Shown: positions 12,956-56,179 of the stretch, piece after piece | Layout of the letters: each line of letters starts with the position of its first letter | Numbering within the stretch: the stretch's first letter is position 1 | From: Octopus vulgaris | Lineage: Eukaryota | NCBI GenBank assembly: GCA_951406725.2 | Contig: OX597820.1 | Coordinates: 108,748,001 to 108,812,000 of the forward strand | Length of the DNA: 64,000 nt | Reading direction: 5' to 3' | Translations under genes and position numbers: made by a program | Notes under the pieces: model-generated | The model's database searches: none | Seen by the model: only the letters and a program-made list of their open reading frames with translations | Told to the model about the DNA's origin: nothing

Positions 12956-13659
12956 GTAAGTATAAACATCACAGGCTAAAATGTTGTGCAATCCACCTAG
13001 CTGTAAATAAGTAATGGAGGGTAGGAGTTAGTTCACTATTTTAAGCTATGGCAGCACTGGGATGCTGGTAAATGGATCATTAGCTTGTAAAGCTGAATTT
13101 GGTTCCTTTTGCAGATATAGTTTAGACATGGATGGTCTCCATGACTCTGTTTTGTCCAAGCTACACAACATTAAATCAAGTCTTTTTTAGTACTCCCTAT
13201 GTCCCAATAGCTCTAGGGACACGCTTCAGTACATAATAATTTCACTGTATTCACATAGGTTCCCAAAGTGGTGTCCCTATAAACTGTAATGGCTTATCTT
13301 TCCACATGATAGCATGATTATTTTCACATATATTTGAAGGGTATAAGGTGATCTGATGGACCAAAGAACTCATTTTACCAAATTGAGTAATGTAGGCTTA
13401 GATACACTATATCTTAAACCAAAGAATACACCTTTGATCATGTGTGCTGGATCAGGGCTAATCAACTGTAAGGTCATTTTAGTCATTATATATTTTACAA
13501 GTGATGGAGATAACTTCATAGAGCTAGAGCCTCAGAATATAACTGTAGATCTGATACAGGGGTTGGACAAAATAATGGAAAAACCTTCAAATTTCAAACA
13601 AATGTATTTTAATATGGGGTAGGACTGCGTTTGGCAGTAATTACAGTTTGAATTCTATG

Positions 13660-14358
13660 AAGTATGGATTTGTACGAACTCATTTCACTCTTTTTGGATA
13701 GACTTGTGACTGGTGATGAAAAATTTATCTTCTATCGAAATGTTAAACGTTGTAAACACTGGCTTGGTAAAAGGAAAAAACTCAACCACAACCGAGAAAG
13801 GAACTTCATGGAAAAAAGGTTCTTCTCTCTATCTGGTGGGATTGCAAAGGAGAAATTCACTTTCAATTGTTACCACCGAATGCAACAATCAGTGCTCAAT
13901 CCCACTGTCAGCAATTGCAGCGTTTGGTCCAGGCTTTGAAGAAGACCCACTTTAGTGAATCGAAAAGGAGTGATGTTTCATTAGGACAGTGTGCGACCCC
14001 ACACTGCAAGGATCACATCACAGAAGATCGAAGAGCTTGGTTGGGAAAAAATTCCTCATCCACCTTATTCTCCTGACCTTGCTCCTTGAGACTAGCATTT
14101 GTTTCATGGTTTACAGAATCATTTGGGGGATGTAACTTGCAAGCTAGGAGGAGGTCGAAATTGACTTTTCAGAGTTCTTTGGTTTGAAACCGAAAGAGTT
14201 TTACATTGATGGGTATAAAAAGCTTGTAAATAGATGGAAGGAAGTCATAGATAATCAGGAAAGCACATTGATGGTTAAATTTCAATTAAATTTTACATTT
14301 GATCACTTGATATTTCTTTATTCAAAATTCGGAGAGAACTTATGGGATGACCTGATAT
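13660..14358 (+). mobile_element. mariner (DD34D) transposase C-terminal remnant
   Basis: FLDRLVTGDEK, KKVLLSIWWDCKG, FH*DSVRPH and HPPYSPDLAP motifs, with stops and frameshifts. Confidence 0.85.
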
Positions 14359-14574
14359 ATATATGTATGTATATCACTTTGATAGGTCTCAGCCAGTATG
14401 GGCCCAAGCCATGTCTTAGTTAATAGCACAATCTGGTAAGGTGTGTGTGTGTATATATATATATATAGTCATATGTGTGTATACATATATTTGTATTTGT
14501 GTGTGTATATATACTCATGCTTATATATATATTTTATATTAATAAATGTATATTAATAAATATATATAAATAAA

Positions 14575-15215
14575 GTTGTTGGCATCCTTTTTGTCTCGTG
14601 GGACAATGGATTTGCGCATAAAATAATCTAGTCCAGCTTTTACATTTCATGTCCTAATACATCTCCTGCTGTGGCTGTGTAATCCTATCCTGGACAAACA
14701 CTTCCTCTCGCAGGTGCCGCAAATGTAGCGAAGACTTTGCCTGGCTGGTTGTAATGTCATACTTTCTTGTTTTTCCATTTCTCGTCACTCCTTTGTGTTC
14801 CCTCTTTTACGGTACATTGCCAATCTCCACAGTTGCTGGCAACTGCTTCCCAGTTGCTAATATTGATGTTGCAGGCCTTCATGTCCCTTTTGCTAACATC
14901 CTTGTATCATAAGAACAGTCTTCCCACAGACCTAGTGCCCCTAGCAAGCTCTCCGTAGAGTATGTCCTTGGGGATTCTGCCATCTTCCATAGGGCTAACA
15001 TGTCCAAGCCATCTCATACGTTTTTGTGTGAGGAGTGCAAACATGCTTTGGTATTCCTGCTTGCTTGTGGACATCTTTGTTGGGAACATGATGCTGCCAC
15101 TTGATGCCGAGGATTTTCCGGAGGCAGCGCAGGTGAAAGATATTAGGCGACACGCTTGGCGTGTGTAGTCCAAGTCTCACTTCCATACAGTAGAGTGCTA
15201 AGTACACATATCAAG
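14575..15215 (-). mobile_element. RTE (BovB-like) LINE 3' fragment with C-terminal C2H2-like motif
   Basis: RCLRKILGIKWQHHVPNKDV and RMRWLGHV..MEDGRIPKDILYGEL..GTR; ends near C..C..SRIGLHSH. Confidence 0.8.
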
Positions 15216-15329
15216 TTAATTTTCATCTTTGAGACTTTTATGTGCCATCGGCACGGGACCAGTCAGCCTGCACTGGCAATGACCATGCTCGATGCTGTTT
15301 TTTATGTGACACTGGCACAGAAACATTAT

Positions 15330-15382
<53 letters not shown>

Positions 15383-15412
15383 CACATGTTTATATGTGTG
15401 TATATATAGATA

Positions 15413-16673
15413 CAGGGGTTGAACCAATTAATGTAAACACCTAGCGTCAAATCATCATAATTTTTTAAATATCTCTAAAACCGTCAAAAGGTTGTTTATT
15501 TTTATGTTTTGGGATTTATTATTAATGTTGCTTAATATGTTTTGCTAAAATTACTGTTTCTTTTTGGATATCATCAGAAAAAGGTAATTAAAATTCATTA
15601 AAATGACAGATGTATCGGACTTTCAAAGAGGTCAAATTGTTGGTGCTCATATTGCAGGCGCTAGCGTAACGAAAAGAGCTAAAATGTTTGGTGTATCAAG
15701 AAGTACTGTCTCAAAAGTAATGACAGCCTTTGACAAAGAAGGAAAAACCTTGTCAAAACAAAACACCGGAAGAAAACCAAAGCTTTCAGATAGGGACTGT
15801 CAGACTCTTACATGAATTGTTAGAAAGGATCACAAAAGTACAGCTCCCAAAATTACTGCAGAGCTTAATGACCAACTCAAGAACCCAGTTTCTACAAAAT
15901 CTGTTTGCCGGGAGCTGCATAAAGCCGGATTTCATGGGCAGACTGCAATCAGAAAACCACTACTTTCAAAAACAAACATTGCAAAGCATTTAGAGTGGAG
16001 TAAAAATCTACAGAATTAGTCCCTAGAGCAGTGGAGGAATGCTATTTTCTCAGATGAGTCATCCTTTACCTTATTTCCAACCACGAGCCTAGTATATGTG
16101 TGGAGGCAGCCAAAAGAAGCATTTAACCCAGACTGCTTTCTTTCAACTGTTAAACAGGGCGGGGGTCTGTGATGATCTGGTGAGGGGTGTATATCTTGGA
16201 AATCTGCTGGCCCAATGGTTTCCCTTCATGGCAGAATTAACAGTCAAGACTAAGCATTTTATCTGATCAAATACATCCTATGGTTGTTTCCGCAGGGAAC
16301 CGCAATCTTTCAGGATGATAATGCTCCAATTCACACAGCTAAAGTTGTTACTGAATGGCACGAGGAACTTCTAGTGAAGTTGAACATCTTATCTAGCCAC
16401 CACAGTCCCCAGATCTCAATATTATTGAACATTTATTTTGCATTTTAGAAAAACAAGTAAGGAGTTGATATCCTCCAGCCTCATCAGTACAAGAACTGGA
16501 GACTGTTTCAGCTGAAGAATGGACAAAAATTCTTTTGGAAACAATTCAAACTTTGTATAAGTCCATACCTCGAAGAATTTAAACTGTAATTCCTGCCAAA
16601 GTCAGTCCTACTCCGTATTAAAATAAATTTGTTTGAAATTTTAAGGTGATTCCATTATTTTGTCCAACCTCTG
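15413..16673 (+). mobile_element. Tc1 (DD34E) DNA transposon, full length, pseudogenised
   Basis: TA-flanked TIRs CAGGGGTTGAACCAATTAATG.. / ..CATTATTTTTGTCCAACCTCTG. Transposase from 15603 (DVSDFQRGQIVGA..) with FSDESSF, FQDDNAPIH and SPDLNIIEH motifs and several stops. Confidence 0.92.
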
Positions 16674-16906
16674 TATACTGTATAGATATATATAAAGTAT
16701 GATGTATTTGTGGTCAGAGGCATTCGTAAACTGAGGTACTGTAGTAAATGAATATGAGAAAGACAGGAGATAAAATACGATTTATTCGTGATCAGAGTTG
16801 TTTGAAAACACCAAGGTTCTACTGTATATATATATATATATATATATGTAATGTGTGTGTGTATTACATATATATTTATATATATATATATATATTTTAT
16901 AGAAGG

Positions 16907-16957
16907 AGCTTCTACAGGACTAGAACTGTTTCACTCAAAAGAAATCATCAGGAAGCT
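16907..16957 (-). ncRNA. Type I hammerhead ribozyme motif (antisense twin of 19921-19971)
   Basis: - strand: AGCTTC-CTGATGA-TTTCTTTTGAGT-GAAA-CAG-TTCTAGTC-CTG-TA-GAAGCT. Stem I is 6 bp, stem III is ACAG/CTGT, cleavage triplet GUA. Confidence 0.75.
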
Positions 16958-17132
16958 AGGTGACAAGAATAGTTTTGGCATTTATACATTTAGGGTGGTG
17001 GGGGACTTTTTGGGGTAGGCATGGCGTAAACTATCATTCTTAGGGGAGTGGTCAAAGGAATCAGTGATAAAGTAGATAAAAGAATAAATAGAATAATAGA
17101 GTTTAGGTAAATAAGGAGACTCTCACTTATAC

Positions 17133-17193
<61 letters not shown>

Positions 17194-17198
17194 GATGC

Positions 17199-17237
<39 letters not shown>

Positions 17238-17451
17238 TACATATATACATACACATACACACATACACACAAGTACATATACCCCCATTTTCATACATCT
17301 ACGTACTCATACATACACACATATATCTACACACATATATATAAAAATAAATAAATATAAAAACAAATATAAAAGAGGATATACACCCCCATACACACAC
17401 GCTCACATATCTATATATATATATATATATATACACACATTCATACACACA

Positions 17452-17493
<42 letters not shown>

Positions 17494-17909
17494 CATATAT
17501 ACATACACATACATATGCATATACATGCACACACATACACACACATTTCTTCCCTTATTTTAAATTTTATTTTTATATTTATTTTTATTTTTATTTTGAC
17601 CTCCACCAACCAGGCCAGCACTGAAGTAGGGTTCTCCCAAGGGATCTAGCCTAGCTGGCCTAAAGAATCCATTTATTGCCCCTCTCCCTTCCTTTCTATC
17701 TTTCTTCCCACTGATACGAACACAAACACTCACACACGCACACACATTCACACGCACACTCATACACATACACAGACGCACGTGTTATATTCATACATAC
17801 ATAAGTGTACCGACTTTCACACATAACTATGTCCACACAAAACCACATATATAAATGTACTTCCGTACACATAAACACACATGAACATCTGCCCGCATAT
17901 ATAGACGCA

Positions 17910-18292
17910 TCTCTCTCTATATAAACGGCAGTTTGTCTGTGCGTGTTTCTGTGTGTCTGTTTGCTTGTACCCTCACCCTGACCACGGCTTTCAACCGATT
18001 CTGATGAAACTTGACACACACATAGCCCAATGTCATAATTCAAAACTAACGCAGCGAAAATTTTGAAAAGTTCCCCCAGTTCTGAAAAAAATCGATAAAT
18101 TCGACATGGGGTCGAGAATCAGAAACACAAACGGCAAACTGTCTAGGTGACGCAACTCCACCTTTTTTAACTAAAAAAAAAATTTACCATCATTTTTTTC
18201 CATTTTTTTGCTATTTTTTGGCTATAACTCTCTAAAAATGCTTTATAGTTATTTCCCTTACAAACCTGAGCAACGCCGGGCGATACTGCTAG
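17910..18292 (+). mobile_element. Short non-autonomous Helitron (~380 bp)
   Basis: Starts TC after A; ends with hairpin CCTGAGCAACGCCGGG then CGATACTG-CTAG followed by T. The empty site is visible in the opposite arm of the inverted repeat. Confidence 0.92.
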
Positions 18293-18588
18293 TATGCCTA
18301 TATACAGACATTTGTGCATATAAACATACATACGCATATATACGCATCCATACGCCTTTAAGTACATATTAGCACACATGCACGCATACACGTGTACATA
18401 AAAGCATACCTACATATATCTACCTACACACATACATATACATACATGCACGTATATACACATACGTACACGTACCTACAAATTCATATCTACACGCATA
18501 CACATACATCTACACACACACAGAAGACTAGTCCATATATATACACAAATATATATATACACATATATATACATATACATATATATAC

Positions 18589-18642
<54 letters not shown>

Positions 18643-19608
18643 ACGCACGCATATACCTACATGTACATACACATATATACTTACACCAGTCATATACATA
18701 CCTACATACACATACATCCATATATCTATACATATACATACACATATATATACACATGCACATACTAATACACATACGCATATCTACGCACATACACGCA
18801 CACACATCTATCTACATATATGTGTATATACGTGCATGTATGTATATGTATGTGTGTAGGTAGATATATGTAGGTATGCTTTTATGTACACGTGTATGCG
18901 TGCATGTGTGCTAATATGTACTTAAAGTCGTATGGATGCTTATATATGCGTATGTATGTTTATATGCACAAATGTCTGTATATAGGCATATGCGTCTATA
19001 TATGCGGGCAGATGTTCATGTGTGTTTATGTGTACGGAAGTACATTTATATATGTGGTTTTGTGTGTACATAGTTATATGTGAAAGTCGGTACACTTATG
19101 TATGTATGAATATAACACGTGCGTATGTGTATGAGTGTGCGTGTGTGAGTGTTTATGTTCGTATCAGTGGGAAGAAAGATAGAAAGGAAGGGAGAGCGGC
19201 AATAAATGGATTCTTTAGGCCAGCTAGGCTAGATCCCTTGGGAGAACCCTACTTAAGTGCTGGCCTGGTTGGTGGAGGTCAAAATAAAAATAAATATAAA
19301 AATAAAATTTAAAATAAGGGAAGAAATGTGTGTGTATGTGTGTGCATGTATATGCATATGTATGTGTATGTATATATATATATATATAAGTGTGTGTATG
19401 AATGTGTGTATATATATATATACATATATATAGTTATGTGAGCGTGTGTGTATGGGGGTGTATATCCTCTTTTATATTTGTTTTTATATTTATTTATTTT
19501 TATATATATGTGTGTATGTATGAGTATGGGTATGGGTGTGTACGTAGATGTATGAAAATGGGGGTATATGTACTTGTGTATATGGATGTATGTGTGTATG
19601 TGTATGTA

Positions 19609-19640
<32 letters not shown>

Positions 19641-19660
19641 CATGTGTATATATGTGCATG

Positions 19661-19693
<33 letters not shown>

Positions 19694-19920
19694 ATATGTA
19701 TGTGTGTGTGTATATGTATATATATATATGTATAAGTGAGAGTCTCCTTATTTACCTAAACTCTATTATTCTATTTATTCTTTTATCTACTTTATCACTG
19801 ATTCCTTTGACCATTCCCCTAAGAATGATAGTTTACGCCATGCCTACCCCAAAAAGTCCCCCACCACCACCCCTTTAAACCTGCCTAAATGTATAAATGC
19901 CAAAACTATTCTTGTCACCT

Positions 19921-19971
19921 AGCTTCCTGATGATTTCTTTTTAATGAAACAGTTCTAGTCCTGTAGAAGCT
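19921..19971 (+). ncRNA. Type I hammerhead ribozyme motif
   Basis: AGCTTC-CTGATGA-TTTCTTTTTAAT-GAAA-CAG-TTCTAGTC-CTG-TA-GAAGCT. Complete core, perfect stems I and III, weak or eroded stem II. Confidence 0.72.
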
Positions 19972-20180
19972 CCTTCTATAAAATAAATTAATTTACTCTG
20001 CTATGTATTGAGTACCTTATTTACTGTGGTTAACCCTGACTCAACCCGGGACCTACATATATATATATATATAGAAATTCGGTGTGAGTACTTGATAATT
20101 GTAAGCACCTGTATATACCGTTTGGTGGTGTAGGTGGTGGAGTAAATTAATCAAAATAAAAACATGATGCCAAGGATTCA

Positions 20181-20258
20181 GCGGTACATATGTTTCGGGC
20201 CTTTATTAGACGGATTTATAACAATGCATAATGTGCGTCTGTGGCCTTCTTCAGCTGC
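20181..20258 (-). ncRNA. Minimal type I hammerhead ribozyme motif (stem I has one A-C mismatch)
   Basis: - strand: GCAG-CTGAAGA-A-GGCC..AGACG..CGTCT..GGCC-C-GAAA-CATATG-TA-CCGC. Confidence 0.65.
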
Positions 20259-20378
20259 GCACAACTACTTCTTCAAGGACATGTATTACATCAAAAATTC
20301 TTGGTTGCGAATGAGAGGATTTGCATCCCCAACCAAGAATTTTTGATGTAATACATGTCCTTGAAGAAGTAGTTGTGC

Positions 20379-20456
20379 GCGGCTGAAGAAGGCCACAGAC
20401 GCACATTACGCATTGTTATAAATCCGTCTAATAAAGGCCCGAAACATATGTACCGC
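20379..20456 (+). ncRNA. Minimal type I hammerhead ribozyme motif of the Penelope-like-element type
   Basis: GCGG-CTGAAGA-A-GGCC-AC-AGACG-loop-CGTCT-AATAAA-GGCC-C-GAAA-CATATG-TA-CCGC. Stem I is GCGG/CCGC, stem II is long, stem III is the palindrome ACATATGT, and the site is GUA (20450-52). Confidence 0.8.
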
Positions 20457-20558
20457 TGAATCCTTGGCATCATGTTTTTATATATGTATGTATGTAAGTG
20501 TGTGTGTATATATATGTGTGTGTGTGTCATATATATATTTCCTTTGATATGTTTACAG

Positions 20559-20771
20559 ACCCTGTGTATGGATCGGAAAGCAAAGCCTTCAAATATGAGG
20601 ATGATGAAGAAGAGAATGATAGTGATGATGAAGAGGAAAAGCTGACTCATGACATATGGGGTACTAAAATCCCAAACCTTTGCAAAGATATTGATACTTG
20701 TAGTTCAGTAAACAGTCTTAGTGATGACCACATGTCCGACTTCGATGAACCTCCTCTTGATGATTTCAAAA
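20559..20771 (+). CDS. EIF2B5: eIF2B epsilon exon (acidic linker): (D)PVYGSESKAFKYEDDEEENDSDDEEEKLTHDIWGTKIPNLCKDIDTCSSVNSLSDDHMSDFDEPPLDDFK
   Basis: Acceptor tttacAG 20557-58, donor GTATGT 20772; phase 1 to phase 1. Resembles human PAEVGAAGKGYLW..LQQNLWG..SPQMDDIK. Confidence 0.9.
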
Positions 20772-21134
20772 GTATGTATTACTATTATTATTATAATTAT
20801 CATCCTCATCACCATCATCGTCATCTGCATCATTATAATAATTAATAATTGTTGAGCTGCAAATTCATTAGCATGCTAGGCAAGATGCTTAGCAGCATTT
20901 CTTCCAGCTCTTTAAGTACTAGTTGAGCACAGGGGCTTAGGTAACGGGAGAACCCCTTGTTTCAAGATTTCAGGCCTTGTGTCTATAGTCGACATCATCA
21001 TCATTGAAAGTCTGTTTTCCCTTTAGGATGTGTCCTCTGGCATGGTTTCTTCTGCTGGACACCCTTTCTAACACCAAACACTCCACAAAGTGTACTGGGT
21101 GCTTTTTGAATGGCCCCAGTTTGTGTATTCTTTT

Positions 21135-25500: not shown

Positions 25501-26530
25501 AAAGAGAGAGAGAGGGAATGGGCTTACAGGTTACGATAGATACTAACCTGAAAAGTGTAGATTACTGAGATAAAAATTTAGATTTACAGTTAGATAAATT
25601 CAGACCTTACCGTAAGCCTAATGAAAAGCTATCTTATATTAGCAAAGAATCCAGTCCTCCACCAGTTAATATTAGGAACCCAGTCAGTAATGTAGGTAGA
25701 CGAATATCGTCAACTTCTTTGGATGAGACAGCATTTCAAAATGCTGCACCCTATTGCAATAATGCATTAAGGAATAGGGACTTCTCTGAGATCCAGTATA
25801 ACCCAGTTAATGCTGGCAGTAATACCACATGTAGAACTAGAACTAGGAGGGTTTTGTGGTTCAACCCAGCTTTTAATATGGCTGTAAAAACTAATATAGG
25901 TAGGGAATTCTTAAAATTAGTCTCTAAATATTTTCAGCCTAATCATAAGTTTTACAGAATATTTAATAGAAGAACGCTGAAGATTAGCTATTATTGTTGT
26001 AAAAACTTCACCTCTTTCATTAGCCAACACAACACTAAAATAATTACAAATAACCAGTGCCAATTCTGATCTGAAGAATTGCAATTGCAAAGCTGAGACC
26101 TCCTGTCCGTTGGAAGGAAAATGTCTGGAGAAAGGGATTGTGTATGGGGGCAAAGTACAAATAGAAGTCTCACATGAATATAAAACATATACAGGGGCTT
26201 CAGAAAATTCTTTCAAGACCAGATTTTATTCACATAGAAATTCCCCGAAAATAGGACAAAGACCAATCTGGCAAAACATGCCTGGGAATTGAAAGAAAAT
26301 GAAACCCGTCCTTTCAATGTGACATGGAAAATTTTAGATAAAGCATCACCTTTCAGACATTGTGCTCATAAAAGGCCCATCAAATGCGATTTATTCCTTT
26401 CGAAGAAACTCTTTATTTTATTCCAGGACAATAGCACTTTGAATCAAAAACACGAACTCTTAAGTTCCTGCAGGCATGCAACAAAATTTAAAATGTCAGC
26501 CAACAAAATACCATATGGATAGTATATATT
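25500..26530 (+). mobile_element. Penelope-like element 3' portion (RT thumb plus GIY-YIG endonuclease), decayed
   Basis: FRPYRKPN.., RRVLWFNPAFNMAVKTNIGREFLKLV..IFNRRTLKISY, CNCKAETSCPLEGKCL, IVY..TYTGASENSFKTRFYSH, and W.LKE..VTWKIL. Confidence 0.85.
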
Positions 26531-29065
26531 TTTTGAATCTTGTACTAGTTTCCAATACCACTGTGGAATTCGTGCTTTGTAGTATGTTTGTTTCGCATCG
26601 CAACAATATTGTATGTATTTCACCATATTCTTTAAGAAAGCCTTCGACTGTTATATATATTGTTCTATATTTAAGAGATGAGAAATTATTTACATTCGAC
26701 AAATATTTGTCCTCATCTTGTTTGTTGTTATATAAAACTGTATTATCTAATCGGTACGGAGCTGACATTATGTTTCAATGGAAACATATACAGAAACTCC
26801 ATCAAAAACTAGCTTGTCTTTCAAACCATCTAACTTTCTTATGTAGATGTAGAGACTCAAAGCTAATACCACCTGGCTCGAATATAATAACACCAGTGGA
26901 TTCATATAAAGCTAGAAGAGTAGCAGAAAGGGCAGGACATGCCCTCATCCGTGAGAGGATCCATTACAACCGTTGGAAAAGACATCAACTAAATAACGAA
27001 ATCAAAGAGAGTTTATCTTCCTTACGTAGGAAAATAACCAGAGATGATGATAGAAAGAGAATCCAACAAGATCTGGTAAAGTCGTACATGAAAGAATCTG
27101 AAATGATGAAGACACACCAGATTAAGAAGTTTATGAAACTCAAAGGTCAGAGAATGAAGACTGAAATCCATCACCCACATGTGAAAGCAGTAATTAATGT
27201 AAGTAGCCGACACCTAGAAAGCTCTGAAGAAGCAGTACTGAACAAAGGTCTCAACTTTGCGACAACCATCAAGTGAATTCCATACTTGGACATAATAGCC
27301 CCGATTGAAGAGATAACCGTAAAGATACCAACTAAAGTGGCAAGTGAGACAGGTACTGGAAAAAGTGAAACTTGCCAAATCAAACATCACTAAGGAAGAA
27401 AAGTTCACTATCAGAGTGACAATTCCATCATAATACTTCTGGCAGACAAGGGAAATGTTACAGTGGTGATGAACAAGTCTGACTGCTCAGAAAACTTGGC
27501 AAGTCTTATAAGTGATGGTAGCTACAGCAAAGTAAAGAAAGACCCTACTTTGAAAACAGAGAGGAAGTTCACAGATCTTGATCAATAACAAGATGATGAT
27601 GATGATGATGATGAAGTACAGACAACTGACTCAACACCACAGTAAACTACCACACATGTACGGTCTTCCTAAGACTCACAAGGATGGTATTCCATTAAGA
27701 CCTATAGTGAGCTGTAGAGATTCAGCATGTCATCCACTGAGCCGCTTCCTTGTGGATATAGTCAGTCTATTAGCAAGAAAGTCAACATCGTACGTGAAGA
27801 ATTCCACCCACTTCACAGAATTGATCAAGGATATGCCCATTGAATCCAACCAGATGGTGAGTCTAGATGTGATAATCCTGTTCACCAAAGTCCCAACTGG
27901 TGAAGCACCATTGGTGATTCAAGAAAAACTAGTGACAGACACCCATCTAAAAGAACGCACTAGTATACCAATAAGAAACTTCATGGAAATGTCGACCTTC
28001 TGTGTATAAATTACCTATTTCAGTATGGACACTGATATATATCGACAAGAGGAGGCTTTAGCTATGGGTTCGGCATTATCACTGGTAATAGCCAATATAT
28101 ACATGGAATAGTTTGAGAATTTGGCTTTAGGATCAACACCACTAAATCCAATACTATGGCTACGATATGTTGATGACACCTTTATACTCTGGCCCCACCA
28201 AGATGTCCAAGTGCTGTTAGATCATGTAAACTCAATAAAGCCATCCATACAGTTAAAAAAAGACAATCAGCTGACATTCTGGGACGTATTAATAGCACAC
28301 ATCAAGTATGTATTCAAGACATCCGTATACCGCAAACCGACCTTTACTGGACGATACCTCAACTTCAATTCCCACTTCAATACAGTGTAAAGAGAAGGAT
28401 TGCTCAGTGCCTAAAACATCATGCAAAGAATATAAGTAGCGATCGTGATACACACCACGAAGAAATGATCTGTTAAGCAACAACTACCCCGAAAGTATAC
28501 TATTCACTCCAATTATGAAGAAGAGAGAGGATGAGGCCAATAAACTGTCCACGGTTTGCCTATCCTATGTGAAAGGCCTCTCCGAAAAGATACAAAAGAT
28601 ATTTGGCCCATATGACATCAGGACAGTATTCAAAAGTAATACAACACTTCGTAAATATCTCCTTCGAGTAAAACCACCAATAGAAGAAAATATGACCAAA
28701 GACTGTGTTTACTTCATCTCATGCAGTTGTGGTAGGTTATACAAAGGTGAAACATGCTGCCCTCTCAAAATAAGGGTAGACGAACATCGCAAAGCTGTTA
28801 CACGAGGAAATATTGATAAATCGGGTATAGCTGATCATGTATGGAAAAACAGAGACCAACTCCCCTTGTGGGATGAAGTTAAAATAATAGACAGAGAACA
28901 CCACTGGAAAATACGAAAACTAAAAGAGCAGCACAATATGCTTGGACACAACAGCCTCCTAAGCAGACCAAATGCAAATATGAGCAGCATATGGGAACTG
29001 GTATTAAGGAAGGATAGAAAAATATTAGATTTATAAGCCCTAAAATTCACTCCATAATTGCCCAT

Positions 29066-29138
29066 GGGCATATGACGTAGTGGTTAAGAGTGTAGGCTGC
29101 TAACCCCAAGATTCTGAGTTTGATTCCAAGCAGTGACC
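29066..29138 (+). promoter_or_regulatory. tRNA-like segment with Pol III A/B-box-like motifs inside the PLE 3' region
   Basis: TGACGTAGTGGTTAAG (A-box-like), anticodon-like arm GGCTGCTAACCCC, GAGTTTGATTCC (B-box-like). Too degenerate to be a tRNA gene. Confidence 0.6.
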
Positions 29139-29221
29139 TGAACAATAACAACAATAATAATAATAATAACAACATCGAAAAATACCTTAGGAATGAGAAC
29201 CCAGGTTTGAAATTTCCCCAA

Positions 29222-29267
29222 GGCACCTGAAGAAGGCTGAAGGGTATATCTGCCGAAACATTGTGTT
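29222..29267 (+). ncRNA. Minimal hammerhead motif in the PLE terminal repeat (probably mutated)
   Basis: GGCAC-CTGAAGA-A-GGCTGA..TCTGCC-GAAA-CATT-GTGTT. Stem I is GGCAC/GTGTT, stem II is GGC/GCC. Stem III reads ACAT where a palindromic ACGT would be expected. Confidence 0.6.
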
Positions 29268-29629
29268 AACAACAAACGAGATGAGGACAAATATCAGTCA
29301 AATGTAAATAATGTTATATATATATTATTTTCAAGTTTAAACTTTTATTATTTTATTATATTTTATGAACCTATTTAATTGTTATATTTATAGATAATTC
29401 TATGCATGGTGCTGCATTTTACGAATGTCTTTTATCCAATTTTATTATTATATACACTGAGCATGTTGGATCTAGGTGTGTTTTTATGTGGATGCGTGTA
29501 TTGTAGGCATGCATATGTATTTGTATGTGTGCGTCTGTGTATATGTGTATGTTTATATTTACATACATAGTACATGGATGTATATGTGTATACACTTATA
29601 TTTGTGTGAATATGTATTTATGTACATAT

Positions 29630-43608: not shown

Positions 43609-46600
43609 AATATATATATACATATAAAAAAAACATACATACATATATATATATACATAAGCAAATCGTACATACTATTCACATGCGCAAAATTCATTGA
43701 ACATCATTGAACAATATATTACATTACATTGGGTATATCATGCGTCATATAGTAAAGTAAATACAATCTAATGTATATAGACTACCACGTTTAACAGTAC
43801 CAACAGTATTATTGCTTTAACGATAATCCTCAACAGATCATACATACTATATTCATGTTTACTAACATAACAAAAATTCACGATACAAGGTTCGAAATAT
43901 AAATATTCACACATACACATATACATATATATATGTGCACAAACAAAATATTTGCGGGTGAGTGTATTAATCAGACAAACGTAATCTAGATATTACTTAA
44001 CGCATCCACGTAACACAAACAAATTCAATTTTAGAATCCAAAATAGTAAATCCAAACTATATGTCTAAGCTGGGTTAGGTCCACAATGTCTTTGTCTCTG
44101 TTATATGCATATTGAATTTATCTAGATATTATTTAATACATCCACGTTATGCAAACAAATCCAACTATAGAATCCAGAAAATAAATCTAAACTTTATGTC
44201 TAATCTGAGCTTAATTCGCAATGTTTACATTTACGTTATATGCATATTAAAATTAATACATCCACGTATTCTAACAAATTCAATTTTAAAAACCAAAGTA
44301 GCAACTTTAAACTCCATGTCAAAGCTGAATTTAGTCCAAAAGTTTATGCTTATGTTTATGCATATTAAATATTTAAAAATATTTAAAATTATATTGGGGG
44401 TCAGGGAGCAGTCATTTAAATCATTGGCTATTTAACTTACATACATACAAACCAGTACAAACATCACATACACAAAAGTGTACTGAAGTCTATACATAAT
44501 ATCTAATATACAAGAAAGATAACATAAAATAATACTTAAAACTACCACATGCATGCACACAAATAAACCTACATATACATATGCATCTACATATATACAA
44601 ATCCAATAGTAACCTCAATCTGTTTAGTACATTGACTCATACTTTGTGCATAACTATATACTAAAAAACAAAAGTAAATACATATCAATATACACAAATA
44701 TAAAGATATATTTACAAACAAGTACCAGTATATAAAAAAAGTACAAATATGTACACACAAATAAACACTTATATCAAAATATATAAATATATAAACACAT
44801 TTATACACTTATACATAGATATACAAAAATCATATGCCTATAACCCATTACAATTTTGTACTCCTAAATATAATAAAGTAAAAAAGATCATAACAACTAT
44901 TTGCATCTATTTCAAAGGGTATTTTGTACTAAGTATTATTTGTATCTAGAGAAGGTATACCCCAGTCTATGAAGACATGAAACATTACGTTCCTTAAGAT
45001 TGTTAATAATCGGTAAATTAGCCCTAATTATAAAGAAAATCTCATTAATGCATAATGAGCATTTTCTGTTCCTATTATTATATGCTGGTGCAGATATAAG
45101 TATTTTCCATTGCAAATTATAATTGATTTTTTTTCGTCCTTAAGCTCCCATATATATGCACTTAACCCTGTAGAATTACTCCTATTCCTATTTTTAAAAG
45201 TATATCTGTGATAATTAAGTCTCTGTTTCAAATTATTCTTAGTAGCCCCAATATATACTCTATTATCATATTGTGTACCTACTATGCATTGGTATGCTAC
45301 CTCTTTTTTCATGCAGTCATTATTGAACACACAATTTTCCTTAATTCTACAATTGCACCTATTATCTTGTTGTAATTGCTTTACTTTATTATTAATTGCA
45401 GCTGTATTCTTATCAATATTATTATTATTAATATTATTATCATTATTACTTATTAATACCATATCCATTGGCGTATTATTATTGATAATATTGCTCTTAT
45501 TTATGTTATATTTTATTATTATTATTACCTATAGTGTTATTATTACTAATTCCATTAATATTATCCATGCTATTATTACTCGTTATAGTATTACTATTAC
45601 TATGGTTTCGATTACTATTACTAGTATTGTTATAATTATTAAATCTTAAGTGATAGTGAGTCACATTAGTGTTACCTAAATTATTTTTTCTATTTAGATA
45701 GAAATAATCAAGTTTTTTATTATTAATTGAGGTGGCAAGATTATGAGTAAGGCTGTATCCTATTCTAATAGTTTTATTATTAATTGTCACAATATTTGTT
45801 CTTTCCTTTTCCAAAATGCTTGTTTATTAAATTGAAAATATTTCCAACTATGTTAGTTTTAATTTGCATAGCATATGGAATTATTAACCACAGTGTATCA
45901 GTAATGTTATATTGATTACACAGCTTACCTATATTATTTATAAATACCCTATTCCTATTATTTCTTCTGTACTTTCTATAATCAGTATAATTTATATTAT
46001 TAAAATTATGACTAAATGCTTTAATCGTAGTTATTATTGTTATAATAGTTCATATTAACTTTACTATTTCCATAATTATTATTATTAATATTATAATTAT
46101 TAATATTTAATATATGATCTTTAAACTTGTTTATACCATTATTAGTATTATTTCTATTCATATTAATATTTTATTTGCGGTTATTCTTTTTATTTGGATT
46201 GTCGTTATGCTTGTCTAACCAATGTTTATTAGTAGTTGTTAACTTATTCATATGATTGAGGCTGTTATTAGGGATATATTTTATTTTACCATTATATCCT
46301 GCCCTATGCAATGCGGAGTTATACTTTTCACTATGTCTATTAAATATCTCTTCATTCGAGGAAAGGTTAGAAATTCTTTTACTAATGCTAAGTAGTAGTG
46401 CCTTTTTAATTTGTGGAGAGTGATTACTAGAGTTATTTATATATCTTAGATTAGAATTTTGTTTCACATAAGGTTCATGGAGTTCAGTATTGAGGTTACA
46501 ATTAACATCGCGATAATTAATAGAATAGTTCTCGTTTTCAATAGTAATAGATAGGCCGAAACTCTTCAAAAATTTATGCAATCGTTTCTTAAGTATTTCC

Positions 46601-47150
46601 AGTCTTTTGTTAGATAGATTCTTAACTAAAAATAAAGTGTCGTCTCTATAGAGGCCGCCATTCAATTCAGGGAATTCTCTACTTAAATTATCTAATAAAC
46701 AAATCCCTACTAAATCAGTCATTTCCACTGATTCCAGCGAACCCATTGTAATGTCAAATAAGTTAGGCGTATCCTTCCTAGTCCATAATTTATTATCGAA
46801 TTCTATAACTGTTTTTCTTGCCGTCAAAATTACCTTAATTTCTTTCATGCTAATGTTAGTGTATTTTCTAGCAAAAATTAAAGCTGTGTATATTATTGGG
46901 TTAATTGATGAGTAATAATTTTGGATATCAAATTGGATAAATTTATGGTTACTACCGTTATCAACCTTAATACTGGAAAACCATTCCAATGCACCCTGTG
47001 TATTCTTCCATAAATTAAGCTTAATTTTATTTCTAATAATGGGTAAATATTTATCTAGGATTAATTTACTTAATTTTCCTAAGTCCGATTTATTTGGACA
47101 GATTAATCTAACTTGTGTATTATTAGGGAAATTATTTTTATGGTCTTTAA

Positions 47151-49741
47151 CCCTTTAGTGTTCAAACCGGCCAGAATTAATTCCCCTTTATTTGTTCAAA
47201 CCGGCCAAATCCAGCCGTACCGACCGCTCTACGAAATCGCTAAAAAAATAAACAAATCACGTTATTAAATTCTCGTAGTTTTGAGATAATGCAAGATGAA
47301 GCCTTTATTCTAGTATAAATACTGTGAAATTGTTTAGACCACATGGTTATTTCCACATTTGAAGAGAACTGTACACTGTTGTGAAAGAAATGGCGTCAGC
47401 AAGTAGCGATTCCGACTTTGAAGGCTTTACTATTGATGATATTGAAAATATCAACGAAAACAAAAGTATTTTGACTTCGGATGAATCTGATATTGATATC
47501 AGTGATTACTTGTCGGACGAAGAAGATTTCGATAACGAAAGTGAAGAAAATGAAAGTGATGAAAACGATAGTGTACACCAGCCAACATGGTCGAAAATTA
47601 CGACACCAGTCACAATTTCTGATTTTACAGAAAACACTGGTCCACAACACAATTTACCTCCTGATGCTCAACCACTGGACTATCTGTTTTTATTTTTGCC
47701 TGAAAGTTTTTTTGAAAATGTTGCAGAGCAAACAAACAAATATGTGCAACATTTAATTTCTGTTCGAGGAAGAAACGATCCGCTATGGCAGCCAACTAAT
47801 ACTGCGGAAATGAGAGCATTTTTTACAATTAACATTATGTTTGGAGTTAAACAGCTTCCTCGACTGTGGAACTATTGGAGTCCCGATGTAAGGTTTGGCG
47901 ACCCATATATTTCGAGCATCATGTCGAAGACGAGGTATTCGAAAATATCTCAGTATTTACATTTAACTGATTCTTCCAATGCCCCCAACAAAAACGACCC
48001 AAACTACGATCCCCTGTACGAAGTACGTCCCGTGATAGATTTACTTGTAAATAATTATAAAATTGTTTATTTACCTGGGAAAAATCTCAGTGTAGATGAA
48101 GCCATGATAGGATTTAAGGGCAGAGTACATTTTCGGCAGTACATGCCTGCCAAACCTACTAAATGGGGGATCAAGGTATGGGAAGCTTGTGAATCGGAGA
48201 TGGAATACTGTGTAAACTTCCATGTTTACTCAGGTAAGAAGTATAATGGGAAAAGACCGCATGGATTGGGACATGATGTTGTATGGTCCCTTACACAACC
48301 TTTTCACCATCAGCACCGACACCTCTATTTCGATCGTTTTTTTCTTCAGTGGCTTTGGCTGAAAATCTTGCCCATGTAAGCACTTACATGTGCAGTACTG
48401 TTATGGGAAATCGTAAAGGTTTACCCCATGAAATAAAAACAAAATTAAACAAAAGAGGGGACATTTTGCAAATGCAAAAACAAAATTTATTAGTTACTGC
48501 ATTTAAAGACAAAAGACAGATTTTAATTCTGTCTTCTAATGAACAACCTGGTGTTGGGGCTGAGGGGAAACCCCTTGTGAATATTTGTTACAACAAATAT
48601 ATGGGTGGGGTAGACAAATCCGACCAATATCAGGCATATTACCCAGTTGGTCGACCTGGGAAGAAATGGTGGAGGTACATTTTGTGGTTTTTAGTTAATT
48701 TAACTATAGTAAATGCACACATTGTATATGTAAAAAGCCACAAAGTACCTCCGCCACCGAAAGACTACGACCACTTGAAATTTCGGGTTGACATCGCATC
48801 TCAGTTACATGAGGGCTTTTCTTCTAGAAAGCACAGAACTGGGAGAAAAGCAAAATTAACTGAGGTGGATGTCAACAGAGAAAATATTGACTTTCATCAA
48901 GTGGAAAAAATAAATGGAACGAAAAAAGTTTGCAGACTGTGTTCGCAGCAAAAAAGAAAAACTGCGAAAGGGTACCAGATCGAGGCTTCATACATGTGTT
49001 CATTTTGCCAAGTGCCCTTGTGTAAAGGGTGCTTTGGACAATTTCACGACAGAAATATGCCATAAATGTATAATTTTGCATATTCCTTTTAATTTTATAA
49101 TATAATATGTAAAAGTGAGAACTACATATTAATTTTCAGTATGTTACACACCTGTATTCACCTTTGTCTCACCTGTTAATGAAATTTTTTTATTAGATGC
49201 ATTCTGTTACGTGAATGAATTCATTAAATTGTATAAGAGTGCATAGCCAATGGTATATTGACTAGTAAAAGAGTTTTGAACTTTCTTTTCAATGATGACG
49301 TTTGAGTGAAATATAGAAAAAGAGTAAAATCTTGTACCGATTACACCTGTATTTTAATCAATTCAAATTAATGTACCTCATCTTGAAAAATGTAAAATTG
49401 TTGGCCGTTGACATCTGGGATAATTTTAGCAGCAAACCAAACAGGTAAGATGTATTAAGAATATGAATTTTAGTGTTTATTCATAATGTTATTGTTTTTA
49501 CACCTGTTAATTGAATTTACCTGCCCATAAAAGTCAAATTTAGTCAGAAAGATCAGCTAAAATTACATAATTATAAACCACTGGCATATAAGCACCCATT
49601 TACAAAGTTTCAAATCAGTATGTAGAAAATGAACAAAGTTACAAGCAAATATTGTGGACACCCCACTTGAACCTGAATAAATCAAAATTAATGCGAACTG
49701 ACAAGCATTACATTTGACAAATTAATCTGAACACTAAAGGG
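47151..49741 (+). mobile_element. piggyBac DNA transposon, full length (2591 bp)
   Basis: TTAA TSDs at 47147-50 and 49742-45; perfect 14-bp TIRs CCCTTTAGTGTTCA / TGAACACTAAAGGG. The flanks rejoin into a continuous PLE reading frame. Confidence 0.97.
47390..49065 (+). CDS. piggyBac transposase (PGBD4-like, ~558 aa) with a single -1 frameshift in a T7 run at 48337-48343
   Basis: SVDEAMI, YFDRFF and MGGVDKSDQ form the catalytic DDD; C-terminal CRLC..CSFC..LC..C..FH cysteine-rich domain. ORFs 47381..48379 and 48283..49065 join if one T is added. Confidence 0.9.
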
Positions 49742-50154: not shown

Positions 50155-50997
50155 CTAGCAGAATTGCCCGGCGTTGCTCGGGGCTGAATTGCTTGAAAGT
50201 ACTGTTAATGATTGCACTGAATTAGGATAATTATTCAGGCAAATATTGAAATAAGCTTACGGTGGGAGATAAGGACTTAACGCCAAACGTGTGCCATTGC
50301 ATTGTTTTGGGGGAACCAAATTTCTGATGAGCATTATAGGGGCACTAACTTTAAGTTTGAGAAAGTGTGGTGGTAGTCCGGGGTGCTCAAAGGAATTGAG
50401 TACCTCTATTGGATAGTTGATGACGTCCTCTGGGTCAGGAGTTGTATCGATAGACTGATATACATCGACTTCCCCAGGAATGAGTTTTAGCATTTCATCA
50501 TTAATATGGTGAACAGTTTTATTCCTCGGGGCCAGTATAGCCTTTTTGCCAATCCAATCCATATTCTGATAATTAGCTTGTAAATCTGGGAACACTGCAT
50601 CTCTGAGATCAGAAGGCGTCTTAACAATGGTACAAATGGAATCGATGGCAATATTACCATTTTCATCCCCTGGTATTTTGCCTTCGCCAAGTGCAAGGAG
50701 AGTGTGAGGAAATGCTGGTGATGTGATATTACGTCGCATATGAGCACGCATATTGGTGTGAAGTTTGAGAGTTACTTCCGTTTATTTTTAAAAATATGCA
50801 TTAAAATGGAAAAAAATGATGGTAAATTATTTGTAAAATCATAGACTCATCGTAGACGCGCGCTAATACCCAGAAGGGCTCGATATGAATCACGACTATA
50901 AGATACCCGGTTTTGGTTAAACTGCATCGCAAAATGTGGGAGTAGTTAGGAATCTAAATCGGAGTAGACAGACACACAACCTTTCTTTTATATATAA

Positions 50998-53287: not shown

Positions 53288-54770
53288 TCTCTTATTATAA
53301 AAGGCAGATTTTATCTGCCTCCCTTTGGGAGTTATACAAATCTACAATATAGGATTTCTTCAATTACAATTTACCTAGCAGTTTTGAGAGTACAATGCAT
53401 CGCGTCATGCCAGGTCCAGTTTTTAAAATTTAAACTCCAATTAAGCAAAATTTACAGAAAACTCACATTCTGGTGTGTGTGTCAAATGCTTTTCTTAGTC
53501 TGGTTTACAGCACACGCAAACGCACACACACAGTGGGCAAGGAATAAAATGAAAGTAATTCACTTACTGTAGTGAGTGATTCTTTCACTCTGCCTCCCAC
53601 TTCCTCTTTACACACATAGAAAAAACTTTTATTTTTTTACATAAGTAATGAGAGCGAAAGAGACTAAGAGAAAGCGATTGTATGACGAGGGAAGTTCCTT
53701 TGAAGTTACCGTGCATGGGACTCATTGATGTACATGTGTGTGTGTGTGTGTGTTTGATGGAGTGTGGGAGACAGACAGTATGTTGTGTAAGTGAAGTGCT
53801 TCTGTTAGTGTGTGTGAAGAGACAGAGAGAGTAATGTGTGAAAGAGAGAGATAACTGAAATTTTTTACTCGGTTTATGTGTATATCTATGTATGCATGTA
53901 TGTGTGTGTGTGTGTGTATGTATGTGTTTATATATAAAAGAAAGGTTGTGTGTCTGTCTACTCCGATTCAGATTCCTAACTACTCCCACATTTTGCGATG
54001 CAGTTTAACCAAAACCGGGTATCTTATAGTCGTGATTCATATCGAGCCCTTCTGGGTATTAGCGCGCGTCTACGATGAGTCTATGATTTTACAAATAATT
54101 TACCATCATTTTTTTCCATTTTAATGCATATTTTAAAAAATAAACGGAAGTAACTCTCAAACTTCACACCAATATGCGTGCTCATATGCGACGTAATATC
54201 ACATCACCAGCATTTCCTCACACCCTCCTTGCACTTGGCGAAGGCAAAATACCAGGGGATGAAAATGGTAATATTGCCATCGATTCCATTTGTACCATTG
54301 TTAAGACGCCTTCTGATCTCAGAGATGCAGTGTTCCCAGATTTACAAGCTAATTATCAGAATATGGATTGGATTGGCAAAAAGGCTATACTGGCCCCGAG
54401 GAATAAAACTGTTCACCATATTAATGATGAAATGCTAAAACTCATTCCTGGGGAAGTCGATGTATATCACTCTATCGATACAACTCCTGACCCAGAGGAC
54501 ATCATCAACTATCCAATAGAGGTACTCAATTCCTTTGAGCACCCCGGACTACCATCACACTTTCTCAAACTTAAAGTTAGTGCCCCTATAATGCTCATCA
54601 GAAATTTGGTTCCCCCAAAACAATGCAATGGCACACGTTTGGCGTTAAGTCCTTATCTCCCACCGTAAGCTTATTTCAATATTTGCCTGAATAATCATCA
54701 TAATTCAGTGCAATCATTAACAGTACTTTCAAGCAATTCAGCCCCGAGCAACGCCGGGCAATTCTGCTAG
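53288..54770 (+). mobile_element. Non-autonomous Helitron (inverted near-identical copy of 50155-51636)
   Basis: TC start directly after the previous CTAG; helicase ORF 54174..54668; hairpin plus CTAG at 54767-70. Confidence 0.93.
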
Positions 54771-55090: not shown

Positions 55091-55758
55091 CACACATACA
55101 CACGCAAATATATAAATAAAATTGTAAGCTAACGTGCGTGTGTGTGTGTGTGTGTGTGCGCGTGTGTGTGTGTGTGACGGTGCGCGCGTGTGTGTGTGTG
55201 TGTGCGTGTGCGTGAGTGTGTGACAGGAAAGTTTTTTTAGACGAATATAACACCTATATCCAAGTAGCAGAAAGATAAGACAGTAAGGTGTGATTTGAGG
55301 GAGATTTGGCTGCTATTTCTACCATGTCTAGCTGCCATGTAGAGGTCTCCCTCATAGGCTCATACATACATATATACATAGATAAGACAGTAAGGTGTGA
55401 TTTGGGGGAAATTTTGCTGCTATTTCTACCAGGTCTAGCTACCATGTAGAGGTCCCCCTCAATTCTTTTATTCTTCTGCTTTTTCCAGCCATTGCTCTGT
55501 GGCCATGCTGGGGCAATGCCTTGAAGAATTGTAGTTTAATGAATCAACTCCAGTTTTATTTTTGTAAGCATTGTATTTATTCTATCTGTTTCCTTTGTCA
55601 AACCACTAGGTGACAGGGATGTAAACAAACCAACATTCGTTGTCAAGCAGTGGTGGAGGACAATCACAAGCACAGACACGCACGCACACACACACATACA
55701 TGCATACACATATACACACATACATACATACATATATATATATGTGTGTATATATATA

Positions 55759-56032
55759 TTGCAGCGTGGAAGGTGTTTGTAAGCCATTTAAGAAACACAC
55801 AAAAACGGTTACATTCACTTCAACATTTAAATTTAATTTGCCAAAATATTTTCGTCGCTTTGATTTTCGCCGCTTTGAGACCGCGACCTGTTCACTGACA
55901 AAAATATCGTGCTAACAGGTCGCGGTCTCAAAGCGACGAAAATATTTTGACAAATTTAATTTAAATGTTGAAGTGAATCTAACGGTTTTTGTGTGTTTCT
56001 TAAATGGCTTATAAACACCTTCAACGCTGCAA
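55759..56032. repeat. Fold-back element (arms 55759-55892 and 55914-56032, 21-nt loop)
   Basis: The arms are reverse complements with a few substitutions; the left arm has a 15-bp tandem duplication. Confidence 0.92.
55837..55902 (-). ncRNA. Hammerhead-like motif with swapped G3-C8 core (GUGAACA)
   Basis: - strand: TTTGTCA-GTGAACA-G-GTCGC-(loop including the duplication)-GCGAC-GAAA-ATAT-TT-TGGCAAA. Stem I 7 bp, stem II 5 bp, palindromic AATATT stem III. Confidence 0.6.
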
Positions 56033-56179
56033 CTGTTATATTGGTAAAAACAGTAAGATAACAAAAGAAAGAAAGAGACCTATAATATTATGTAAATAGA
56101 AGAAATCTTTATATATAAAAGTCGTTCCAGCACACGATCTCAGATCAAGTCACTTGCTATGCAAGTACATCTCTGTATA

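What the first reader, a model, noticed from the sequence alone, without database searches (positions are those of the whole stretch)
16895..20481. Two ribozyme families in one EIF2B5 intron, each sense-strand hammerhead accompanied by an inverted antisense copy
Seen: within 3.6 kb upstream of exon 20559 there are two unrelated hammerhead families, each present once per strand as an inverted repeat (16907-/19921+ and 20181-/20379+). Known: PLE terminal repeats carry hammerheads and PLE insertions often generate inverted partial repeats; a self-cleaving RNA on the sense strand of an essential gene's intron could sever the pre-mRNA. Inference: in both pairs the antisense copy is transcribed first and could capture the ribozyme in a long duplex. 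That would be a built-in ribozyme/anti-ribozyme arrangement letting such insertions persist in genes. A-to-I editing, which is extensive in coleoids, could loosen it. The other sense-strand motifs in the window (29222 and the right arm at 55914) are mutated or truncated, which fits this idea.
Basis: partly seen in the sequence, partly recalled or inferred. Interest (0 to 1): 0.78.

Follow-up and report, generated by a model that had tools for sequence, protein, structure and literature searches.

The report
Two Penelope retrotransposon fold-back insertions
Two fragments of common Penelope-like jumping genes sit side by side in an intron of an octopus EIF2B5 gene, each carrying a hammerhead-ribozyme motif and its mirror copy, and because most copies of both families sampled elsewhere in this genome have the same mirror layout, it is likely an ordinary by-product of how they insert, not a built-in ribozyme off-switch.

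Summary
The four hammerhead motifs and both inverted repeats are real and lie in an EIF2B5 intron (12956-20558). They are two adjacent Penelope-like element (PLE) insertions: A (16895-20056) and B (20074-20481). Both families are abundant (5,989 and 1,643 exact motif hits). Among the first 100 listed hits of each, close opposite-strand pairs point outward in 30 of 31 (A) and 28 of 29 (B). Such a pair shows 'antisense first, sense second' to either strand, so the order carries no sign of selection. The inverted truncated copy, one-sided tail and (TA)n target are published PLE features, and opposite-strand hammerhead pairs were noted in 2014. The sense A motif has a private helix II break, and metazoan PLE hammerheads barely cleave alone. 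Folding predicts that the duplex does block the ribozyme, but as a by-product. The intron-versus-intergenic test could not be run. One unreported-looking detail: most family A insertions are ~190-bp palindromes whose join sits at the ribozyme's helix I (1,112 exact joins, against 15 at the cleavage site). The scan met similar PLE hammerhead remnants in ray and shark DNA.

The parts
12956..20558 (+). EIF2B5 intron (GT-AG, phase 1) holding both insertions
   Evidence: exon mapping with O. bimaculoides protein P0002; splice sites read
16895..18464 (-). PLE family A, left arm (no tail; outer end abuts (TA)n)
16907..16957 (-). family A type I hammerhead motif, antisense to the gene; helix II keeps three pairs (one G-U)
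17910..18292 (+). 383-bp later insertion in the left arm; TC...CTAG ends between A and T, Helitron-like (hallmarks recalled)
   Evidence: absent from the right arm; ends read; related ends elsewhere in the window
18465..18818 (.). spacer: unpaired continuation of the longer A arm
   Evidence: I4; matches other A copies on the left-arm strand
18819..19980 (+). PLE family A, right arm
19921..19971 (+). family A hammerhead motif, sense; private G>T breaks the closing pair of helix II; predicted cleavage after 19965
19981..20056 (+). family A tail, on one arm only
   Evidence: same tail on exactly one arm in 19 of 19 short pairs
20057..20073 (.). (TA)n tract between the two insertions, the likely shared target
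   Evidence: (TA)n flanks
20074..20155 (-). family B tail, on one arm only
   Evidence: 762 exact tail hits against 1,643 ribozyme hits
20156..20313 (-). PLE family B, left arm; hammerhead motif 20181-20258 with a helix I mismatch
   Evidence: (I8, 97%)
20324..20481 (+). PLE family B, right arm; hammerhead motif 20379-20456 matching the family's common form, palindromic helix III, predicted cleavage after 20452
20559..20771 (+). EIF2B5 coding exon (about residues 446-517)
   Evidence: contig of run X7 on 20558-20771

Best explanation
The region holds two adjacent, 5'-truncated insertions of two Penelope-like retrotransposon families, each an outward-pointing inverted pair with a tail on one arm and (TA)n at its ends, and the sense-plus-antisense hammerhead layout is likely a by-product of their integration rather than a selected off-switch. 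Inferred mechanism: the element's endonuclease cuts both strands in a (TA)n tract; reverse transcription is primed on each strand from two nearby start sites in the RNA (one gives the tail, one does not); the two truncated cDNAs join at their inner ends. Because the hammerhead lies just inside the 3' end, both arms carry it, and any polymerase crossing the insertion in either direction meets the antisense copy first. In the EIF2B5 pre-mRNA the arms would pair and block the hammerhead fold, but the motifs are likely near-inert anyway.
For: Shown: 30 of 31 (A) and 28 of 29 (B) opposite-strand neighbours within 5.5 kb are minus-then-plus, in the first 100 listed of 5,989 and 1,643 hits. 60 and 56 of those 100 hits are in such pairs. 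Of 21 apparent A solos re-read, 13 have an adjacent diverged partner, 3 belong to one tandem-plus-inverted cluster, and 5 have none within about 9 kb. The tail is on exactly one arm in 19 of 19 short pairs, 10 right and 9 left. An A copy ends an ORF with RT (Pfam RVT_1, 3e-8) and GIY-YIG (1e-3, under cut-off) in L070; L071 links the same ORF's N-terminal part to A. A different RT-like ORF lies upstream of B in L071, and L061 and L062 share the link. Literature: inverted truncated copy, one-sided tail and (TA)n bias (PMC8557442); both strands cut and extended, two RT start sites (PMC11167929); opposite-strand hammerhead pairs 100-700 bp apart and inactive monomers (PMC4209133).
Against: Intronic versus intergenic pairing rates were not measured, so added selection is not excluded. 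B has many copies without a partner nearby (17 of 20 apparent solos, about 9 kb searched on one side), so selection would have material to act on. In this gene, both sense motifs that look intact have a partner, and the one sense motif whose inverted piece does not cover the core (29227) has lost its helix III pair. The B ORF has no Pfam hit. The two-strand model is extrapolated from one Anolis element in vitro. The tails here (76 and 82 bases) are longer than the published 30-40.
Confidence: 0.85

Rival explanations
1. Integration makes both paired and solo copies, but selection removes solo sense hammerheads from introns, so paired copies are over-represented there because the antisense arm disarms the ribozyme.
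For: The duplex is predicted to suppress the B fold by about 125 kcal/mol. B's predicted cut is 106 bases from the 3' splice site of an essential gene. Both intact sense motifs in this gene are paired. Xenopus retrozymes are somewhat depleted from introns (bioRxiv 10.64898/2026.07.22.740005, passages).
Against: Pairing is already the majority state in an unselected sample. Of five inverted pairs seen in this gene's introns, three sense arms are damaged despite having a partner, against one antisense arm (too few to test). Monomeric PLE hammerheads are inactive or protein-dependent in vitro. Hammerhead-cut introns can still splice (PMC2995048, reporting Dye 2006 and Fong 2009).
Confidence: 0.1
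2. The paired units are non-autonomous elements that move as a whole (MITE-like foldback elements, or hairpin RNAs re-copied by the PLE enzyme), so the inverted form is inherited from a master copy rather than made at each insertion.
For: 22 of 30 close A pairs have 44-81 bases between motif hits, and two exact join sequences recur 706 and 406 times.
Against: Join sequences vary among the 19 short pairs read, and loop variants of several subfamilies each appear on both arms of their own insertion. Spacings run from 44 bases to over 5 kb. The tail is on one arm only. The linked ORF is an RT, not a transposase.
Confidence: 0.04
3. The motifs are chance matches or assembly artefacts.
For: Rfam finds none; folding z-scores of the isolated motifs are unremarkable, -0.3 to 0.8; no laid contig bridges the insertions.
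Against: Thousands of copies with conserved core and helices. The arms differ by substitutions and by a later insertion, so they are not a mirror-read artefact. Family sequence is abundant in all four runs laid.
Confidence: 0.01

Closest known systems
Inverted, 5'-truncated pLTR insertions of endonuclease-bearing Penelope-like elements (Craig et al. 2021, PMC8557442)
   Same: Inverted truncated copy flanking the unit, tail at one end only, (TA)n target, hammerhead in the terminal repeat, RT plus C-terminal GIY-YIG in longer copies.
   Different: Tails are 76-82 bases rather than 30-40; these two insertions have no ORF; family A has a sharp join hot spot at helix I that the passages read do not mention.
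Minimal type I hammerheads of metazoan PLEs (Cervera and De la Pena 2014, PMC4209133)
   Same: Conserved core, short helix I, extra base after position 9, palindromic helix III in B, mostly truncated copies, opposite-strand pairs close together.
   Different: Family A has U-U where G10.1-C11.1 is usual and a longer helix III loop; B has a long helix II. Activity of these two families is untested.
Non-LTR retrozymes (bioRxiv 10.64898/2026.07.22.740005; PMC7229834, listing only)
   Same: Non-coding PLE-related repeats with type I hammerheads.
   Different: Retrozymes are head-to-tail tandems of same-strand ribozymes; these copies are inverted, one ribozyme per strand.
CPEB3 intronic ribozyme (PMC10919898) and synthetic anti-ribozyme switches (PMC12033390); search listings only
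   Same: A self-cleaving motif in an intron; antisense pairing can block a ribozyme.
   Different: CPEB3 is a single host locus with measured activity; these are high-copy transposon remnants with no sign of function at the locus.

Membership tests
EN+ Penelope-like element | RT and C-terminal GIY-YIG ORF in longer copies (family A) | tested here: met
   L070 ORF: RVT_1 3e-8, GIY-YIG 1e-3 (below cut-off), followed by a 3' region and the A hammerhead; L071 gives a second link
EN+ Penelope-like element | RT and C-terminal GIY-YIG ORF in longer copies (family B) | tested here: inconclusive
   784-codon frame upstream of B in L071, link shared by L061 and L062; 22% identical to the A RT over 317 aa (E 4e-7); RT and GIY-YIG-like motifs by eye; no Pfam hit; 1,856 mostly unnamed relatives
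EN+ Penelope-like element | inverted 5'-truncated copy, 3' ends outward | tested here: met
   58 of 60 close opposite-strand pairs; both window insertions
EN+ Penelope-like element | tail extension at one end only | tested here: met
   19 of 19 short A pairs; B pairs; longer than the published 30-40 bp
EN+ Penelope-like element | microsatellite (TA)n target | tested here: met
Neptune or Nematis clade | RT phylogeny; Cys-rich linker before the endonuclease | not tested
   no tree built; a CxxxxCxxC linker is visible in the L070 ORF, which suggests Neptune for A
type I (minimal) hammerhead ribozyme | core CUGANGA, GAAA, UH with helices I-III | tested here: met
   cores complete in all four; helix II weakened in sense A, helix I mismatched in antisense B
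type I (minimal) hammerhead ribozyme | G10.1-C11.1 pair | tested here: inconclusive
   A has U-U in nearly all copies; B has A-C, or G-C if one base is read as bulged
type I (minimal) hammerhead ribozyme | self-cleavage | not testable with these tools
   only assembled contigs were available, which cannot show RNA ends
non-LTR retrozyme | head-to-tail tandem of same-strand ribozymes | tested here: not met
   0 (A) and 1 (B) same-strand neighbours within 5.5 kb per 100 hits
MITE / foldback DNA transposon | fixed symmetric ends and length, transposase partner | tested here: not met
   variable arm lengths and joins, one-sided tail, RT partner
selected ribozyme/anti-ribozyme unit | pairing enriched in introns; intact sense solos depleted | not testable with these tools
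   no annotation held; ab initio exon calling on 40 loci could not assign genic status

The most novel reading that the evidence does not exclude
The hammerhead's own helix I acts as the stop-and-join signal during reverse transcription of family A, so this element by default deposits self-disarming ribozyme/antisense hairpins, thousands per genome. Introns of essential genes tolerate these while purging solo sense ribozymes, which would give PLE hammerheads a role in integration and seed many editing-substrate duplexes in octopus pre-mRNA.
Probability: 0.12. Interest if true: 0.65.

Novelty: new member of a known kind. Interest (0 to 1): 0.24.

Why it matters
As a locus it is ordinary: two transposon remnants in an intron. 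Two things have some value. Second, family A's join hot spot at helix I is a countable genomic footprint of the unresolved step that makes PLE inverted ends. It points away from the cleavage site (15 joins against 1,112), in line with the report that cleavage is not needed for insertion (PMC11167929). It could be tested in the existing in vitro system.

Tried and rejected
Rfam gave no hammerhead hit. Sequencing runs: no RNA holder listed on record. The four runs laid were contigs, so RNA ends, strand and editing could not be read; the differences listed appear in DNA runs too and come from other family copies, and no listed contig bridges an insertion, so presence in other individuals is open. 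Only 19735-20800 was laid. Assigning family copies to introns by ab initio exon calling on 40 fetched loci failed: it recovered the known EIF2B5 exons only among many false candidates, and found one recognisable gene (IL-17-like, L125). Clustering of A with B: 2 of 31 B hits within 5 kb of an A hit on C1 against 0.6 expected (p 0.13), so no significant attraction was shown, although direct A/B neighbours also occur in L071 and L075. Joins at the cleavage site as a sign of in vivo cleavage: only 15 exact sites. Earlier findings in this genome: none. Literature searches for a natural anti-ribozyme arrangement or for helix I joins listed nothing on either; the library lacks most subscription papers, including older PLE work. 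No supplements were read.

Full report
OBSERVATION. The four motifs are present as described. Family A reads helix I (6 bp), CUGAUGA, a short helix II, GAAA, helix III and GUA, at 19921-19971 (+) and 16907-16957 (-). Family B has a 4-bp helix I, CUGAAGA, a long helix II and a palindromic helix III, at 20379-20456 (+) and 20181-20258 (-). Rfam calls neither, and isolated folding z-scores are unremarkable. The case that they are real rests on copy number and conservation: 2,988 + 3,001 exact hits for A and 819 + 824 for B, with 0 for reversed controls. In about 93 fetched A copies (de-duplicated by flanks), 90 keep the same helix II arms while the loop varies; 59 of 61 B copies keep each of helix I and helix II.

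HOST GENE. The exon at 20559-20771 is 96% identical to Octopus bimaculoides eIF2B-epsilon. That protein maps as 14 exons on +, from about 38 kb before the window to about 33 kb beyond it, with the W2 domain exon last. The intron is 12956-20558. One 2,089-base contig of a run guessed to be RNA lies on 20558-20771 and no further; that individual may not carry the insertions.

ANATOMY. The A repeat is not just the ribozyme. Its arms are 16895-18464 and 18819-19980, and a 383-bp element with Helitron-like ends (hallmarks recalled) entered the left arm later. The right arm runs on into a 76-base tail, then (TA)n, then the 82-base tail of B, then the B hairpin (158-base arms, 97% complementary, 10-base spacer). 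The other two outer ends stop in TA-rich microsatellite. So there are two insertions back to back, each pointing outward. The sense A motif has a G>T change in helix II found in 1 of about 93 copies; the hammerhead fold costs -3.0 against -6.8 kcal/mol for the antisense arm. The sense B motif has the family's common form, and its antisense partner has a helix I mismatch.

IDENTITY. [quoted passage not shown] A different long ORF lies upstream of B in L071; L061 and L062 share that link. It is 22% identical to the A protein over 317 residues, has 1,856 mostly unnamed relatives and no Pfam hit. Two distinct PLE families is therefore shown for A and likely for B; clades were not tested by a tree.

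THE KEY TEST. I took the first 100 listed exact hits of each family (chromosome C1; 100 of 5,989 and 100 of 1,643). Opposite-strand neighbours within 5.5 kb were minus-then-plus in 30 of 31 for A and 28 of 29 for B; 60 and 56 of the 100 hits lie in such pairs. Re-reading 21 of the 40 apparent A solos, 13 had an adjacent diverged partner, 3 formed one tandem-plus-inverted cluster and 5 had none. Of 20 of the 44 apparent B solos, 2 had a short partner, 1 was tandem to a pair and 17 had none within about 9 kb on the upstream side. In 19 of 19 short A pairs the tail is on exactly one arm, 10 right and 9 left; B tails are about half as many as B ribozymes (762 against 1,643). A minus-then-plus pair is its own mirror image: a polymerase on either strand reads an antisense copy first and a sense copy second.

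WHAT IS KNOWN. PMC8557442 (passages found by term) describes the adjacent inverted 5'-truncated copy, the tail at one end and (TA)n targeting as PLE features. PMC4209133 (parts 1-2 of 4) reports hammerheads in PLE terminal repeats, pairs 100-700 bp apart on opposite strands in Schistosoma, no cleavage by a single motif and low cleavage by dimers. PMC11167929 (parts 1-2 of 4) shows an Anolis PLE protein cutting and extending both strands, two RT start sites that explain the tail, a hammerhead that cleaves only with the protein, and no RNA-seq ends at the cleavage site. PMC2995048 (passages) reports second-hand that hammerhead-cut introns were still spliced while a faster ribozyme blocked splicing. 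bioRxiv 10.64898/2026.07.22.740005 (part 1 of 5 and passages) finds Xenopus retrozymes depleted from introns, though 42-44% still lie in them. No supplements were read.

MECHANISM. Shown: the layout, its frequency and the element link. Inferred: two cDNAs primed on opposite strands of a cut (TA)n site join at their truncated ends. Predicted: in pre-mRNA the arms pair. The 78-base B motif alone folds as a hammerhead (-10.8), in its arm that fold costs 7 kcal/mol, and in the hairpin about 125 (-155.2 against -280.8), with pairing starting by 20345.

RESULTS AGAINST MY READING. The intron-versus-intergenic comparison could not be run, and B leaves many apparent solos. Within this gene, the two intact sense motifs (20383 and one about 32.5 kb past the window end) are both paired, and the motif at 29227, whose inverted piece (26685-26730) does not reach the core, has lost its helix III pair. 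On the other side, of five inverted pairs in these introns, three sense arms are damaged in spite of a partner (19921, 25199, 55914) against one antisense arm. The numbers are too small to favour either view.

SIDE RESULT. 22 of the 30 close A pairs have only 44-81 bases between hits: they are palindromes of about 190 bp made of little more than the ribozyme, its mirror copy and the tail. In 18 of the 19 read, both arms end at or inside the ribozyme's 5' half (these were chosen for short spacing). Two exact joins in the 5' strand of helix I occur 706 and 406 times, the matching join at the cleavage site 15 times, and 1,583 arms run on upstream. A likely cause is that the cDNA forms helix I with itself once copied, stops, and anneals through the AGCT palindrome; a template 5' end or splice site there is an alternative. 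Searches listed no paper on this. The two insertions of the finding are not of this short class.

VERDICT. Real, correctly located, PLE-derived; the anti-ribozyme reading is most likely a by-product (0.85), with a selective filter not excluded (0.10). New members of a known kind; interest 0.24.

Noticed in passing
L081-L096, L098-L100; genome-wide: Most family A insertions are ~190-bp palindromes whose join lies in the 5' strand of helix I of the hammerhead; 1,112 exact joins of two types, against 15 at the cleavage site.
   Followed up: partly
G000:C7:108842610-108844683 (L143): A second family A outward pair in the last mapped EIF2B5 intron, with both hammerhead motifs intact.
   Followed up: partly
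   Followed up: partly
window 55750-56041: Inverted pair whose minus arm reads as a hammerhead with a G3-C8 core in place of C3-G8 (by eye); the plus arm is cut off at the core.
   Followed up: partly
window 26464-29312: Decayed PLE (RT and GIY-YIG-like frames) ending in the hammerhead at 29227, with a 46-base inverted piece at 26685-26730.
   Followed up: partly
window 17910-18292; 50257-50781; 54144-54668: Helitron-like short elements (TC...CTAG) and Pif1-type helicase fragments (Pfam hit for 50257-50781).
   Followed up: no
window 45028-47154 (-): Another decayed PLE-like RT and endonuclease reading frame in the long EIF2B5 intron.
   Followed up: no
L097 (G000:C1:19711300-19713900): The one inward-pointing B pair in the sample: both arms carry tails, with repeated tail pieces in (TA)n between them; probably neighbouring insertions in one tract.
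   Followed up: partly
L071, L075, L114: Family A and family B ends directly adjacent at other loci, as in the window.
   Followed up: partly
L125:5377-5799 (+): IL-17-like gene 4.7 kb from a solo B motif.
   Followed up: no
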